A stretch of DNA of 64,000 nucleotides, taken from Patescibacteria group bacterium. Lineage in GTDB: Bacteria; Patescibacteriota; Gracilibacteria; Peribacterales; Peribacteraceae. A model generated the notes under the pieces. The model was not told the DNA's origin, ran no database searches, and worked only from the letters and a program-made list of their open reading frames with translations. The stretch is from the NCBI GenBank assembly GCA_023263945.1, contig JALQTW010000001.1:117741-181740 (forward strand), read 5' to 3'. This document shows, one piece after another, positions 45,845-56,734 of this stretch (the stretch's first letter is position 1; each line of letters begins with the position of its first letter). The translations under genes were made by a program, and so were the position numbers.

Positions 45845-45850
45845 CTAGAA

Positions 45851-45903
45851 GCTAGTTGCTAGCAGCTAGAGAGGTTTATCGTAAAAAGAAACTAGCGACT
45901 AGC
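45851..45903. repeat. CTAG-word hairpin between the convergent S41 protease gene and ndk
   Basis: GCTAGTTGCTAGC (45851-45863) pairs at 11/13 positions with ACTAGCGACTAGC (45891-45903). Flanking GCTAGAAGCTAG / CCTCTAGTAAC words extend it. Confidence 0.6.
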
Positions 45904-45920
45904 CTCTAGTAACTACTTTC

Positions 45921-46454: not shown

Positions 46455-47714
46455 TCAATCCAGTAAGTGGAGTAATGCTTCCTTTTTCTCTTCTTTTCCA
46501 ATCACGGCAAGGCGCAGGTTGCTTGTGATGAGGAGTTTTCGTGCCAGTGCATTCACTTGATCCAGCGTCACATCGTCAATCGCTTTCATGTAATCTGGAA
46601 TATCCCGCACTTTGGGGTAGAGCAGTTGTTGTTTCCCATAGAAATGAGCACGCTCTTCGGAATCTTCCAGGGAGAGTGTTACTTTTCCTTTCAAGAAATC
46701 CTTCGCACGTTTCAGTTCATCTTTTGTAATGCCATCTTTCGCACACACGTCGTACTCATGGCGAATCAGGCTAATCGCTTCATGCAGACGGCTTGTATCT
46801 ACTCCTGCACGGGTCGAGAGAATGCCGACGTCCATGTAGTTATCCGTTGATGTCGAAATGTAATAGCACATGCCTTTTGCCTCGCGGATGTTGAGGAACA
46901 TGCGGGAACTCATGGAGCCACCAAGAACAGCCGCCAAAATCTTCTGCGCAAAGTGATCTGGATCTTGCGAGGAGACTCCCTGCACTCCCAGTACAAGGTG
47001 TGCCTGCTCGGTTGGCTTTGTTCTTAGGAAGAGCCTTTCTGTAGGGCAGGCGCCAAGAGGTTGCCATTCGCGTGCTTTCTTGCCACCCACAGAGCCAAAA
47101 TACGTCTCTGCAAGTTTCATGCCATCTTTCTCTGTAATGTTTCCTGCAAAGGTCACCACTAAGTTATCTGGTGTATAGAACGAATTCTTATGCCGCATGA
47201 AATCCTTCTGATTTACGGAACGAATGACGTCTTCTGTTCCAATGGTGTCCCAGCCAAGCGGCTGATCTCCAAAAAGAAGCTGCTCGAAGTCCCATCCTGT
47301 CTGATACATGGGTGTATCCTGATACATCCTGTACTCCTCAATAATCACACCACGTTCTTTCTCAATTTCTTCTTGTGGGAATGTTGCATGAATCAACATG
47401 TCTGAAAGAACATCGCAGGCAAGCTCTGTGTGTGTTGCTTCTACCTTCACATAATACCCCGCATATTCTTTGCCTGTGAATGCATTGAAGTCTCCGCCTA
47501 TGGCATCAATGGCCATGCTAACCTGCGCAGCAGATGTGTATTTCTTTCCCCCCTTGAAGAACATGTGTTCTAGGAAGTGACTGATGCCGCGCTCAGCGTT
47601 CACTTCGTAGCGCGAACCGGCACCGGCAAACACGAGCACCGTGACAGCAGCGGTTCCTTGAACGGGAGCTATCAGAACAGGAAGACCAGAAGGGAGACGA
47701 TTGAGGGTGAACAT
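46455..47714 (-). CDS. M16-family (pitrilysin/insulinase-like) zinc peptidase
   Basis: The internal ATG at 47714 gives MFTLNRLPSGLPVLIA.... It has the HFLEHMFFKG (HxxEH) motif. The longer track ORF would read through palindromic repeats. Confidence 0.8.
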   Translation of the reverse strand: MFTLNRLPSGLPVLIAPVQGTAAVTVLVFAGAGSRYEVNAERGISHFLEHMFFKGGKKYTSAAQVSMAIDAIGGDFNAFTGKEYAGYYVKVEATHTELACDVLSDMLIHATFPQEEIEKERGVIIEEYRMYQDTPMYQTGWDFEQLLFGDQPLGWDTIGTEDVIRSVNQKDFMRHKNSFYTPDNLVVTFAGNITEKDGMKLAETYFGSVGGKKAREWQPLGACPTERLFLRTKPTEQAHLVLGVQGVSSQDPDHFAQKILAAVLGGSMSSRMFLNIREAKGMCYYISTSTDNYMDVGILSTRAGVDTSRLHEAISLIRHEYDVCAKDGITKDELKRAKDFLKGKVTLSLEDSEERAHFYGKQQLLYPKVRDIPDYMKAIDDVTLDQVNALARKLLITSNLRLAVIGKEEKKEALLHLLD

Positions 47715-47722
47715 CGGGGGGA

Positions 47723-47751
47723 AGTCTAAGGCGGAACATGCCAAATACCAA
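47723..47751 (-). promoter_or_regulatory. candidate leaderless promoter (TTGGTA-17-TAGACT-8 nt-ATG)
   Basis: Read on the minus strand: -35 at 47746-47751 (inside the CCAAATACCAAA word), -10 at 47723-47728, ATG at 47714. Confidence 0.45.
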
Positions 47752-47773
47752 ATTCTAAATTCCAAACGGGAGG

Positions 47774-47823
47774 TAGCGGCAGCTCCGGAGCTGCCGCTAG
47801 CAGCGAGCCATGGCTCGCTGCTA
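47774..47823. repeat. two abutting perfect 26-nt palindromes
   Basis: TAGCGGCAGCTCCGGAGCTGCCGCTA (47774-47799) and TAGCAGCGAGCCATGGCTCGCTGCTA (47798-47823). They share the central TA, and each is its own reverse complement. Confidence 0.9.
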
Positions 47824-47831
47824 CAAAGATA

Positions 47832-47860
47832 TTGGCAACCTATCATCTCTCCTCTACAAT
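47832..47860 (+). promoter_or_regulatory. candidate leaderless promoter of rpmH (TTGGCA-17-TACAAT-9 nt-ATG)
   Basis: -35 at 47832-47837, -10 at 47855-47860, ATG at 47870. Confidence 0.5.
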
Positions 47861-47869
47861 GCCGCGGTC

Positions 47870-48013
47870 ATGTTAGGAAAGACACGTTGGCGTCGGCGTC
47901 TCCGCAGGCACGGATTCCTTGCTCGGAGCAAAAGTAAAACAGGTCGCAAAGTCCTGAAACGTCGTCGTGCACAGGGGAGGAAAAGAATCGCGGTGCAGAA
48001 GAAATTGAAATAG
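47870..48013 (+). CDS. rpmH: 50S ribosomal protein L34
   Basis: The internal ATG at 47870 gives MLGKTRWRRRLRRHGFLARSKSKTGRKVLKRRRAQGRKRIAV... Confidence 0.85.
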   Translation: MLGKTRWRRRLRRHGFLARSKSKTGRKVLKRRRAQGRKRIAVQKKLK

Positions 48014-48080
48014 CCACGAGCTGTGAGCTTTGAGACACGAGCTACGAGTTTTTCTCGTATCTCGAAACTCGTGCCTCAAG
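48014..48080. repeat. CACGAG/CTCGTG-word quasi-palindrome and terminator after rpmH
   Basis: The centre is GCTACGAG-TTTTT-CTCGTATC (48041-48061). The outer words CACGAG (48015, 48036) pair with CTCGTG (48068-48073). Confidence 0.6.
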
Positions 48081-48096
48081 GGTGTATCCTCATTCC

Positions 48097-48408
48097 ATGC
48101 TTGAAGCCCTCCACCGTGTCAGTGCATTCTTCTTCTATCTCTTTGCATGCTTGGCAATTGGAGGAGCAATGCTTTTGCACCGAGACGGAACACCTGCATT
48201 CTGGATTCCCATCGTCCATTCGTTCGATCTTCCATTGATTCTAGTGGCCATGATCTATGGAGGAACAAGTTTGTATGGAGGGCTCGTTCAAAGGGGTATG
48301 CATTCGCGCACGCTCATGCTGGTTATTGCTGTACCTCTGCTTCTTCTCTTTGTACTGTTTGTTTTTTTGAATTTTGCATTCCCCGTGACGCTTCCGTCCG
48401 CACCCTAA
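48097..48408 (+). CDS. hypothetical small membrane protein (3 TM helices)
   Basis: ATG at 48097 gives MLEALHRVSAFFFYLFACLAIGGAML.... The track start is a GTG at 48082. Confidence 0.45.
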   Translation: MLEALHRVSAFFFYLFACLAIGGAMLLHRDGTPAFWIPIVHSFDLPLILVAMIYGGTSLYGGLVQRGMHSRTLMLVIAVPLLLLFVLFVFLNFAFPVTLPSAP

Positions 48409-48940
48409 TGGTACGATCTGGAAAATCCAGGAACTGATTCACCGCACGCGCTACCGTGAAGAGGTAATCGCTCAATCGATTCACATAGACGATAAGTGCC
48501 GTATTCACGTCTTCATCCTGCATCAAATCTACAATCCATCGTTCAGCACGACGACAGACGGTTCGTGCATTGTGGAGGAGCGATGCAGATTCAGATCCAC
48601 CAGGCAGAATGAAGGTCGTCAGCTCGGGCAGATTCTTCGTATGAAGATCAATCCATCGTTCCATGTCTGCAACTTTTTCCAGTCCCATGCGCGGAACATT
48701 CACCGGTTCTTTGAGAGGTGTTGCCAGGTCCGATCCTACTAAAAAAAGTGTATGTTGAATGTCATCCAACTCTTCGCGAATGCTCTGCGGCAAATCATGT
48801 CGTGACAGAATGACCCCTAAGAGGGAATTGAGTTCATCAATCGTCCCGTATGCGTGAAGACGTGCGGCTGCTTTGGAGACGCGATCTCCTCCGAAGAGGC
48901 CCGTGGTGCCTTTATCGCCTGCGCGTGTGTAGATCTTCAT
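48323..48940 (-). CDS. PduO-type ATP:cob(I)alamin adenosyltransferase family protein
   Basis: MKIYTRAGDKGTTGLFGGDRVSK...YGTIDELNS... are family hallmarks. It overlaps pheT by 4 nt and the convergent membrane-protein ORF by 86 nt. Confidence 0.8.
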   Translation of the reverse strand: MKIYTRAGDKGTTGLFGGDRVSKAAARLHAYGTIDELNSLLGVILSRHDLPQSIREELDDIQHTLFLVGSDLATPLKEPVNVPRMGLEKVADMERWIDLHTKNLPELTTFILPGGSESASLLHNARTVCRRAERWIVDLMQDEDVNTALIVYVNRLSDYLFTVARAVNQFLDFPDRTIRVRTEASRGMQNSKKQTVQREEAEVQQ

Positions 48941-56650: not shown

Positions 56651-56734
56651 ATGTCAAACAATAGGAAACAAATGACAATTTGCTCTTAATCTTTAAGTGT
56701 TGTTTGGCCCTTGTCCTTTGGCATTTGGCATTTT
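56628..56734. repeat. quasi-palindrome filling the divergent spacer between sufS and the GT-C membrane protein gene
   Basis: AAATGCCAAAGGCCAAATACCAAATGTCAAACAA (56628-56661) and TGTTTGGCCCTTGTCCTTTGGCATTTGGCATTTT (56701-56734) pair at about 24/33 positions. The 14-mer GCCAAATACCAAAT also occurs at 47740-47753. Confidence 0.7.

What the first reader, a model, noticed from the sequence alone, without database searches (positions are those of the whole stretch)
47774..47823. Two abutting perfect 26-nt palindromes lie immediately upstream of the rpmH promoter
TAGCGGCAGCTCCGGAGCTGCCGCTA and TAGCAGCGAGCCATGGCTCGCTGCTA are each exactly self-complementary. They share the same TAGC..GC..GC frame and overlap by 2 nt. 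They end 8 nt before the rpmH -35 box, in the divergent spacer with the M16 peptidase gene. Perfect, loop-less 26-mers are more typical of dimeric protein operators or cruciform-forming sites than of terminators. At about 65% GC they contrast with the AT-rich word arrays next to them.
Basis: seen in the sequence. Interest (0 to 1): 0.6.

Follow-up and report, generated by a model that had tools for sequence, protein, structure and literature searches.

The report
Conserved two-copy double-palindrome DNA element
Two back-to-back perfect DNA palindromes between the rpmH and M16-peptidase promoters of an uncultured Peribacteria (CPR) bacterium form a sharply bounded 52-base element that has stayed almost unchanged while its surroundings were scrambled, has a second copy elsewhere, and most resembles a low-copy REP-type hairpin repeat, not a promoter part or a terminator.

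Summary
P1 (47774-47799) and P2 (47798-47823) are perfect 26-nt palindromes sharing 2 nt. About 0.001 such palindromes are expected by chance in 64 kb.

They lie between two back-to-back promoters that appear to make leaderless mRNAs, 8 nt from the rpmH -35 box and 22 nt from the M16 -35 box. They are therefore probably not part of either mRNA.

New findings:
- **Conservation.** A relative whose synonymous sites are saturated (37% identity at 4-fold sites) keeps 49 of 50 bases. The block is the longest exact match in 7 kb of shared gene order, while the rest of the spacer cannot be aligned.
- **Presence/absence.** A strain whose M16 gene is 99.7% identical to that relative's lacks the block.
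- **Second copy.** Public assemblies hold exactly one more copy, at equal depth, with unrelated flanks and the same GTAG...CTAC boundaries (47773-47824).
- **Relatives.** Other Peribacteria carry different GTAG...CTAC perfect palindromes at gene ends.

Best reading (about 0.4): a low-copy, tail-to-tail pair of GTAG-headed REP-type hairpin units, kept constant by sequence-specific recognition. An operator for a dimeric regulator is the main rival (about 0.25).

High copy number, a defining REP feature, is not met.

The parts
47773..47824 (.). 52-nt element GTAG...CTAC: the unit that is both conserved between lineages and repeated at a second locus
   Evidence: A 37-nt exact match with the 88%-aa relative starts at G47773. 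Within the 50-nt palindrome pair, 49 of 50 bases are identical to L162/L163/L165 and 50 of 50 to L166. The second copy aligns from 47775 to 47824; the last loose letters before it are ...TCGA, so G47773 matches and T47774 is replaced by A.
47774..47799 (.). P1, a perfect 26-nt palindrome (11-bp stem plus CCGG centre when folded); with G47773 it reads GTAG at its 5' end on the + strand
47798..47823 (.). P2, a perfect 26-nt palindrome (centre CATG); with C47824 it reads GTAG at its 5' end on the - strand. Its centre is the only position that differs in the L162 lineage (CCATGG to CCCTGG).
47832..47860 (+). rpmH promoter, TTGGCA-17 nt-TACAAT, ending 9 nt before the ATG (leaderless type)
   Evidence: The same TTGnnn-17-TAnnnT-9 nt-ATG layout is seen in orthologous spacers.
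47870..48013 (+). rpmH (ribosomal protein L34, 47 aa)
   Evidence: tblastn finds orthologues in 19 related loci; Pfam Ribosomal_L34 on the orthologue in L171.
47723..47751 (-). Inferred M16 promoter on the - strand: TTGGTA (47751-47746), 17 nt, TAGACT (47728-47723), then 8 nt to the ATG
   Evidence: Read from the sequence. TA[C/G]ACT lies 6-9 nt before the M16 ATG in most of the 14 orthologous spacers..
46455..47714 (-). M16 (pitrilysin/insulinase-type) peptidase, 419 aa; the 463-aa reading frame from 47846 is a spurious extension through the palindromes
   Evidence: Homologues align from residue 1, and other assemblies aa.
47740..47767 (-). Four 7-nt words (- strand: GTTTGGA ATTTAGA ATTTGGT ATTTGGC), which are repeated -35-like TTGGnAT heptamers; this stretch is hypervariable between strains

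Best explanation
The 52-nt block at 47773-47824 is a discrete, low-copy repeated DNA element, not part of either promoter. Its build matches a tail-to-tail pair of two different REP-type units. Each unit is a short, GC-rich, perfectly palindromic hairpin with a GTAG head. The heads point outwards, one on each strand, and the tails overlap by 2 nt.

**Shown:**
- The palindromes are perfect and their position is as described.
- The block is almost invariant across lineages whose synonymous sites are saturated.
- The boundaries of conservation and the boundaries of repetition coincide at GTAG/CTAC.
- One further copy exists at an unrelated locus, at the same sequencing depth.
- The block is absent from a near-identical strain.
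- Other Peribacteria carry GTAG...CTAC palindromes.

**Inferred:**
- The element arose by duplication or insertion.
- It is held constant because a protein reads its sequence in hairpin or cruciform form. The most likely candidate is an HUH tyrosine nuclease of the RAYT/TnpA-REP kind. A host factor that has come to depend on the element is also possible.
- Where it sits, it probably also acts as a passive spacer, or as a cruciform that absorbs supercoils, between the two back-to-back leaderless promoters. It is not needed for their activity.
For: **Reality and position.**
- Perfect palindromes far beyond chance.
- They lie upstream of both -35 boxes, so neither predicted leaderless mRNA contains them.

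**Conservation.**
- Window versus the L162 lineage: the M16 gene is 76% identical in nucleotides, 4-fold sites are 37% identical, rpmH is 77% identical, and the right-hand spacer is 38/46 identical. The left-hand spacer cannot be aligned.
- The block itself is 49/50 identical, with the single change at the centre of P2. This gives P = 2e-5 even against the coding-level identity.
- It is the longest exact match (37 nt) in 7.26 kb of shared gene order.
- By contrast, the hairpin after rpmH keeps its shape in that lineage but not its sequence.

**Repeat behaviour.**
- Logan contigs of five runs from three studies break at the block.
- They show exactly one more copy, with flanks ...CGTCGA and GATAGGGG.... 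Its depth is 91 and 85, against 88 and 94 for the M16/rpmH copy in DNA run X7, and 5.3 and 5.1 against 3.8 and 4.9 in X2.
- L164, whose M16 gene is 99.7% identical to L162's, lacks the block.

**GTAG heads.**
- G47773 and C47824 lie inside the conserved and repeated unit.

**Relatives.**
- L005 carries GTAGCGGAGAGTTCGAACTCTCCGCTAC, with the same GTAGCGG/CCGCTAC frame as P1.
- L088 carries a pair, GTAGAGACGCGAGATCTCGCGGCTCTAC and GTAGAGACGCGCGAATCGCGCGTCTCTAC.
- The L005 palindrome lies just after a stop codon and the L088 pair lies between convergent genes.

**Literature.**
- REPs are 20-50-nt palindromes preceded by GTAG. [quoted passage not shown] Dimers made of two different units occur, with spacers as short as 1-2 bp (PMC8266576, PMC3733652).

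**Unchecked leads from this scan.**
- A RAYT-type gene with REP doublets is reported on another piece of this genome.
- Miniature REP/RAYT systems are reported in other CPR genomes.
Against: - Only two copies are seen; REP families usually have tens to thousands. There is no other unit in the 64-kb window or in about 1 Mb of related loci.
- The copy studied here lies between divergent genes, whereas REPs lie mostly after genes.
- In canonical REPs the GTAG head is unpaired. Here TAG is part of the stem.
- The second copy has GAAG, not GTAG, at its left end.
- In runs X1 and X3 the contig runs straight through the block and no second-copy contigs appear. The second copy may therefore be missing in some strains, possibly including the window's own.
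- Retention at the same site with 98% identity is also what a host-selected binding site would show.
Confidence: 0.4

Rival explanations
1. Operator array for a dimeric or tetrameric transcription factor. Each palindrome binds a dimer on double-stranded DNA. The complex sits just upstream of the rpmH -35 box (P2 centre near -57, P1 centre near -81) and about -70 and -94 from the M16 start. It co-regulates the two divergent promoters and one further locus, forming a two-site regulon.
For: - Exact dyad symmetry and conservation of all 44 stem positions; the only change is at a dyad centre, where dimeric proteins usually make no contact.
- A fixed 8-nt distance to the rpmH -35 box in both lineages, while the distance to the M16 -35 box varies.
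- Only two sites per genome, as for small regulons such as HrcA/CIRCE.
- Location between two promoters.
Against: - The half-sites of P1 and P2 share only 7 of 13 positions, or 10 of 14 with a gap, so a single protein binding both is doubtful.
- Continuous, GC-rich, perfect 13-bp arms are unusual for operators.
- The block does not overlap either core promoter.
- No regulator gene is nearby; no DNA-binding regulator gene lies within about 10 kb of the block.
- A near-identical strain (L164) and all more distant relatives keep both promoters without the block.
- The right flank of the second copy has no -35-like box at the matching position.
- The unit ends exactly at GTAG/CTAC at both loci, as expected for an inserted element.
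Confidence: 0.25
2. A structure-only element. In one version it is a two-way RNA hairpin barrier that stops antisense or read-through transcription (from the pheT operon on the - strand, or from the S41 peptidase gene on the + strand) before it runs into the opposite promoter. In the other version it is a DNA cruciform that absorbs the negative supercoils generated between divergent promoters.
For: - Because each unit is a perfect palindrome, the same very stable hairpins form on either strand: -38 kcal/mol as RNA (z = -4.5) and a DNA fold with z = -3.6.
- Genes on both sides could send read-through transcripts into the spacer.
- Orthologous spacers in relatives often hold long imperfect inverted repeats.
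- Contigs from RNA-seq runs cover the spacer, although DNA carry-over cannot be excluded.
Against: - No U-tract follows either hairpin on either strand.
- A purely structural role would allow compensatory changes, yet none of the 44 stem positions changed across saturated divergence. The hairpin after rpmH was completely rewritten over the same distance.
- GC-rich 26-bp palindromes are short and slow to extrude as cruciforms (general knowledge).
- The block is absent in L164 and in more distant relatives with the same gene layout.
Confidence: 0.12
3. Core site of a site-specific recombinase, such as an att, dif-like or integrase target. Two inverted binding arms flank a 4-6-bp centre, and the second copy would be the partner site.
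For: - Each unit can be read as 10+6+10 or 11+4+11, as in tyrosine-recombinase core sites.
- There are two copies that are identical over the right-hand 32 nt and differ only on the left.
- Presence differs between strains.
Against: - No integrase, recombinase or mobile-element gene was found in the 64-kb window.
- The copy studied here is flanked directly by housekeeping genes on both sides, so nothing is integrated there.
- Fully symmetric centres would give no directionality.
- No match in phage, plasmid or viral collections.
Confidence: 0.05
4. Neutral by-product of the mutational process that fills this genome's spacers with short repeated words and near-palindromes (replication slippage and template switching), with no function of its own.
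For: Spacers in this genome and its relatives are full of word arrays and inverted repeats (first-reader note). Template switching can make a near-palindrome perfect.
Against: Neutral sequence would not stay 49/50 identical when 4-fold sites are 37% identical. It would also not recur with the same boundaries at a second locus. The neighbouring word array differs at 7 of 28 positions, and the spacer stretch 47717-47759 at 11 of 43, between strains with a 99.8% identical M16 gene, while the block is unchanged.
Confidence: 0.04

Closest known systems
GTAG-tagged REP elements and their dimers (BIME/REPIN), especially the short, perfectly palindromic group 3 REPs of Stenotrophomonas, Pseudomonas and Marinomonas, and tail-to-tail heterodimers with 1-2-bp spacers (Di Nocera et al. 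2013, PMC3733652; Corneloup et al. 2021, PMC8266576)
   Same: - 26-nt GC-rich palindromic units within the 20-50-nt size range.
- A GTAG tetranucleotide at the 5' end of each unit.
- Two different units in opposite orientation with almost no spacer.
- Intergenic and dispersed to more than one locus.
- Presence varies between strains.
- The sequence is kept across species.
   Different: - Two copies instead of tens to thousands.
- TAG of the head is base-paired inside the stem.
- The two units overlap by 2 nt.
- This copy lies between divergent promoters, not after genes.
- No cognate RAYT has been shown.
- The host is a small-genome CPR bacterium.
CIRCE, the HrcA operator (TTAGCACTC-N9-GAGTGCTAA)
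   Same: A roughly 27-nt perfect inverted repeat. It is highly conserved, typically present once or twice per genome, and active as DNA and possibly as RNA. The outer letters TAGCA...TGCTA are shared with P2.
   Different: Only 5 of 9 arm positions match. The length is 26 nt, not 27. The flanking genes are not chaperone genes. No canonical CIRCE was found in the window.
Intrinsic (Rho-independent) bidirectional terminators
   Same: Very stable GC-rich hairpins that read the same on both strands.
   Different: No U/A tracts. Placed between divergent genes, upstream of both promoters. Conserved in sequence, not only in shape.
parS/ParB-type centromere sites
   Same: Perfect palindromes, few per genome, strongly conserved, and often near rpmH-type origin-proximal genes.
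   Different: No similarity to TGTTNCACGTGAAACA. 26 nt, not 16 nt. No dnaA, parAB or GC-skew turn nearby.

Membership tests
GTAG-tagged REP / BIME (REPtron) | Palindromic unit of 20-50 nt preceded by a conserved GTAG tetranucleotide | tested here: met
   P1 reads G47773+TAG... on the + strand, and P2 reads GTAG (47824-47821) on the - strand. Both flanking bases are conserved in the L162 lineage. Caveats: TAG is paired within the stem, and the second copy has GAAG on its left.
GTAG-tagged REP / BIME (REPtron) | Units commonly paired in opposite orientation (REP plus iREP dimers) | tested here: met
   Two different units with heads pointing outward and tails overlapping by 2 nt. Heterodimers and 1-2-bp spacers are documented.
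GTAG-tagged REP / BIME (REPtron) | High copy number dispersed over the genome | tested here: not met
   One site in the 64-kb window. Exactly one further copy at 80% likeness or more in contigs of five runs. The whole genome could not be scanned.
GTAG-tagged REP / BIME (REPtron) | A cognate tnpA-REP (RAYT) gene flanked by the same units | not testable with these tools
No Y1/HUH domain was found among the window's ORFs. An unchecked first-reader note reports a RAYT on another piece of the genome, with differently tagged units.
GTAG-tagged REP / BIME (REPtron) | Located mainly downstream of ORFs, in convergent or same-direction spacers | tested here: not met
   This copy is in a divergent spacer. 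The context of the second copy is unknown. The GTAG palindromes of relatives L005 and L088 do lie after gene ends.
HrcA operator CIRCE | TTAGCACTC-N9-GAGTGCTAA upstream of chaperone operons | tested here: not met
   At best 5 of 9 per arm by eye. No match with 3 or fewer mismatches in the window. The neighbours are rpmH and an M16 peptidase.
Intrinsic terminator | GC-rich hairpin followed by a U-tract, downstream of a gene | tested here: not met
   The terminator scan reports nothing at 47774-47823. No T-run follows on either strand. Both neighbouring genes point away from the block.
Operator of a dimeric regulator | Dyad-symmetric site positioned to affect a promoter, with a cognate DNA-binding protein | tested here: inconclusive
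   The dyad symmetry and the position next to the promoter are met. No cognate protein is identifiable, and the site is dispensable in L164 and in other relatives.
parS | 16-bp TGTTNCACGTGAAACA palindrome | tested here: not met
   No resemblance. The only 2-mismatch hit in the window is at 1685, at the chance level.

The most novel reading that the evidence does not exclude
The block is not selfish DNA. It is a lineage-specific, strongly constrained control site read by an unknown factor of this CPR clade. For example, it could be a hairpin or cruciform switch that senses the supercoiling generated between two back-to-back leaderless promoters and couples ribosomal-protein and peptidase expression with a second locus. 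In this reading the GTAG-headed palindromes of Peribacteria form a small regulatory code derived from REP-like ancestors.
Probability: 0.12. Interest if true: 0.7.

Novelty: new variant of a known kind. Interest (0 to 1): 0.45.

Why it matters
CPR bacteria have tiny genomes, few recognisable regulators and, in this lineage, apparently leaderless mRNAs. What their intergenic DNA does is almost unknown.

This block is the most conserved stretch, coding sequence included, in 7 kb of shared gene order between two lineages with saturated synonymous sites. It sits in a spacer that is otherwise hypervariable even between strains. That makes it a clean, short, testable candidate for a protein-DNA recognition system in an uncultured lineage.

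If it is a REP-type element, it would show that REP/RAYT-like systems can persist at a copy number of two in reduced genomes, and at promoter-proximal sites. That bears on whether such repeats are parasites or have been taken over by the host.

If it is an operator, it would define a new regulator-site pair.

Tried and rejected
No genome-wide count of TAGC-N18-GCTA or GTAG palindromes and no RAYT search were possible.

**Attempts to reach the second copy.**
- It is not in the window or in any of 172 fetched loci, allowing 5-6 mismatches.
- A synthetic six-frame peptide query built from its reconstructed sequence found nothing.
- Four different ways of laying contigs failed to reveal its 4 differing letters.
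- Extending the window leftwards by exact-protein look-up failed because the start codon was called differently.

**Readings rejected.**
- Coding: the 463-aa M16 frame through the palindromes is a gene-calling artefact. Homologues start at MFTLNRL, and the extension is not conserved.
- An upstream ATG at 47810 in frame with rpmH is lost in L162.
- Known RNA family: no Rfam hit.
- tRNA or tmRNA: none here.
- CIRCE and parS.
- Replication origin: no dnaA nearby and no turn in GC skew.
- Phage, plasmid or viral origin: no match.
- Assembly artefact: the block is present in independent assemblies.
- A larger TAGC...GCTA or GTAG...CTAC family within the window: none found, and the count is at or below the shuffle expectation.

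**Literature.**
- Searches for palindromes or leaderless promoters in Peribacteria/Patescibacteria found nothing relevant.

Full report
**What is there.**
The window comes from an uncultured Candidatus Peribacteria/Peregrinibacteria bacterium of the candidate phyla radiation (CPR). The best genome-collection relatives of its M16 peptidase are Peribacteria metagenome-assembled genomes at 74% amino-acid identity or less.

At 47774-47799 and 47798-47823 lie two exactly self-complementary 26-mers, P1 and P2, that share the dinucleotide TA. About 0.001 palindromes of this length are expected in 64 kb of this composition. In 100 shuffles the longest palindrome was 22 nt, seen once. Apart from one hairpin inside a gene, they are the only hairpins in the window with a perfect stem of 9 bp or more and a loop of 8 nt or less.

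**Surroundings.**
- rpmH (47870-48013, + strand) encodes a 47-aa L34 protein.
- The M16 peptidase gene runs on the - strand from 47714, not from 47846. All homologues align from MFTLNRL, and other assemblies aa. The 463-aa frame exists only because the palindromes happen to contain no in-frame stop codon.
- The rpmH promoter, TTGGCA-17-TACAAT, ends 9 nt before the ATG.
- On the other strand, TTGGTA-17-TAGACT ends 8 nt before the M16 ATG.
- The same promoter layout, with 6-9 nt between the -10 box and the ATG, recurs on both sides of 14 orthologous M16/rpmH spacers and at several other genes of the window.

Both mRNAs are therefore probably leaderless. The palindromes lie in the 80-nt gap between two back-to-back -35 boxes, 8 nt from the rpmH box and 22 nt from the M16 box. 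This is inferred from sequence; no transcription-start data exist. Contigs from RNA-seq runs do cover the spacer, but they may contain DNA.

**Conservation.**
Protein search and exact-protein look-ups gave close relatives.

- *Same species.* A JGI contig (L166; M16 gene 99.8% identical) and the Logan contigs of runs X3-X7 differ from the window at 11 of 43 positions in 47717-47759. That stretch holds the M16 promoter and a 7-nt word array. The block is identical in all of them.
- *Sister lineage.* L162, L163 and L165 come from three independent assemblies. Their M16 is 87% identical in amino acids and 76% in nucleotides. Only 37% of 4-fold degenerate sites are identical, which means saturation. 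This lineage keeps 49 of 50 bases. The single change is at the centre of P2 (CCATGG to CCCTGG). Meanwhile the left spacer cannot be aligned, the right spacer is 38/46 identical, and rpmH is 77% identical.
- *Longest match.* The longest exact match in the 7.26-kb syntenic region, coding sequence included, is 37 nt and is this block. It starts at G47773.
- *Significance.* The chance of 49/50 identity is 2e-5 even at the coding-level identity, and 1e-20 at the neutral level.
- *Contrast.* The hairpin after rpmH keeps its shape in the sister lineage but has a wholly different sequence.

The block is therefore under a sequence-specific constraint, not merely a structural one.

**It behaves as a discrete, repeated, dispensable unit.**
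- *Absence in a close strain.* L164 has an M16 gene 99.7% identical to L162's, yet lacks the block. Its spacer differs throughout, apparently because a recombination tract replaced the spacer and part of rpmH.
- *Absence in distant relatives.* None of the more distant Peribacteria with the same divergent M16/rpmH layout has the block.
- *A second copy.* Logan contigs of runs X2, X4, X5, X6 and X7, from three studies, all break at the block.
  - Two contigs enter a shared 32-mer (47793-47824) and two leave it. One pair is the M16/rpmH locus.
  - The other pair has unrelated flanks (...CGCATGGTCGAAAAACGGATTAATCGTCGA on the left, GATAGGGGTACATGCCCAATCCCACATCCC... on the right).
  - Its depth is the same: 91 and 85 against 88 and 94 in X7, and 5.3 and 5.1 against 3.8 and 4.9 in X2.
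  - So there is exactly one further copy, in the same genome, that is at least 80% alike.
- *Shape of the second copy.* It matches 47775-47824 with four differences, all within 47775-47792. One of them must be at 47792, from the logic of the contig overlaps. Its left end reads GAAG where this copy reads GTAG. The repeated unit is therefore the same 52 nt (47773-47824) as the conserved unit.
- *A caveat.* In X1 and X3 the contig runs through the block and no second-copy contigs appear. The second copy may be missing from some strains, possibly including the window's own.

I could not recover the second copy's letters or its neighbouring genes.

**What it resembles.**
The unit begins with GTAG on the + strand and with GTAG on the - strand. 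Each half is a short, GC-rich, perfect palindrome. This is the grammar of GTAG-tagged REP elements:
- REPs are 20-50-nt palindromes preceded by GTAG.
- Units pair in opposite orientation, often as heterodimers with different stems.
- In some families only 1-2 bp separate the partners (PMC8266576 and PMC3733652).

Other Peribacteria in the fetched loci carry different GTAG...CTAC perfect palindromes at gene ends. L005 has GTAGCGGAGAGTTCGAACTCTCCGCTAC, which shares the GTAGCGG/CCGCTAC frame with P1. L088 has a pair of related units 45 nt apart, between convergent genes.

Notes from other readers of this scan are unchecked. They report a RAYT-type HUH gene with REP doublets, of a different tag, on another piece of this genome. 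They also report miniature REP/RAYT systems in other CPR genomes.

**Membership is not established.**
- Copy number is two, not tens or more.
- This copy is in a divergent spacer.
- TAG of the head is paired within the stem.

I therefore say it is built like, and probably works like, a REP tail-to-tail heterodimer. I do not file it as a proven member.

**Rivals.**
- *Operator (0.25).* An operator for a dimeric regulator explains the dyads, the sequence constraint, the fixed distance to the rpmH -35 box and the low copy number. It fits poorly with several facts. The two half-sites differ (7 of 13 shared). The perfect arms are long and GC-rich. No regulator gene is nearby. Strains and relatives with the same promoters do without the block. 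The unit has element-like GTAG/CTAC boundaries at a second locus whose right flank has no matching -35 box.
- *Structure only (0.12).* A two-way RNA barrier or a supercoil-absorbing cruciform fits the very stable folds and the gene layout. It does not explain why none of the 44 stem positions changed.
- *Recombinase core site (0.05)* and *neutral by-product (0.04)* are unlikely.
- *Excluded.* CIRCE, parS, any Rfam family, tRNA or tmRNA, a coding role and an assembly artefact were tested and excluded.

**Verdict.**
However, the block is not a private feature of the rpmH promoter.

It is a sharply bounded, almost invariant 52-nt element present in two copies. It is best explained as a low-copy REP-type hairpin doublet (confidence about 0.4). 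Its effect on the two flanking leaderless promoters is probably secondary.

It is of moderate interest. It is a new variant of a known kind if the REP reading holds, and more interesting if a dedicated host factor reads it.

Noticed in passing
window 47740-47767; also upstream of the genes starting at 56661 (- strand) and about 56758 (+ strand): The AT-rich 'word arrays' next to the palindromes are tandem 7-nt repeats of a -35-like heptamer (TTGGnAT on the strand of the gene they precede). Examples are TTGGAAT-TTAGAAT-TTGGTAT-TTGGCAT before M16, TTGGTATTTGGCCTTTGGCAT before the cysteine desulfurase gene, and TTGGCATTTGGCAT before the 980-aa gene. They look like stuttered -35 boxes.
   Followed up: partly
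window 47658-47759: A strain-level hypervariable patch. Strains whose M16 gene is 99.8% identical to the window's differ at 14 positions within these 100 nt (the M16 N-terminal codons, promoter and word array). They show no difference from 47760 to 47958. The word array changes in a concerted way (CCAAATA/CCAAATT/CTAAATT to CCAAGTT/CCAAATG/CCAAGTT), and the M16 -10 box switches from TAGACT to TACACT.
   Followed up: partly
L058 2886-2927, L068 2373-2414, L079 2939-2980: Three distant CPR lineages (43-48% M16 identity, from different assemblers) each have an unrelated perfect palindrome of exactly 42 nt, 20-115 nt upstream of their M16 gene. In L079 it ends at the A of the ATG. The identical length, 2 x 21, could be biological, or it could be linked to assembly with k = 21.
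   Followed up: no
L088 1781-1882: A Peribacteria relative has two related GTAG...CTAC palindromes, GTAGAGACGCGAGATCTCGCGGCTCTAC and GTAGAGACGCGCGAATCGCGCGTCTCTAC, 45 nt apart between convergent genes. This is a REP-like pair with variation in the stems.
   Followed up: partly
window 48014-48080: The spacer after rpmH is an imperfect hairpin built from CACGAG/CTCGTG words, with the T5 run in the loop and not after the stem. One strain has a 7-nt deletion at 48018. The L162 lineage has a different sequence of the same shape.
   Followed up: no
window 45845-45920: The convergent spacer between the S41 peptidase and NDK genes is a near-palindrome of GCTAG/CTAGC words (AGCTAGAAGCTAGTTGCTAGCAGCTAG ... 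CTAGCGACTAGCCTCTAG). It shares the GCTAGC word with the P1/P2 junction.
   Followed up: no
window 48082-48408 and 48323-48940: rpmH is not followed by rnpA. It is followed by a small membrane-protein gene with no Pfam match, whose 3' end overlaps the convergent cobalamin adenosyltransferase gene by 86 nt.
   Followed up: no
L170/L171, between M16 and rpmH: In one relative at 75% identity, a 118-aa ORF of unknown function is inserted between M16 and rpmH. The divergent spacer is therefore a recurrent insertion site in this family.
   Followed up: no
runs X1 and X3 on window 47300-48300: In these two runs the contig crosses the palindromes without a break, and no contigs of the second copy are laid. 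In five other runs they are. The second copy may be polymorphic between strains.
   Followed up: partly
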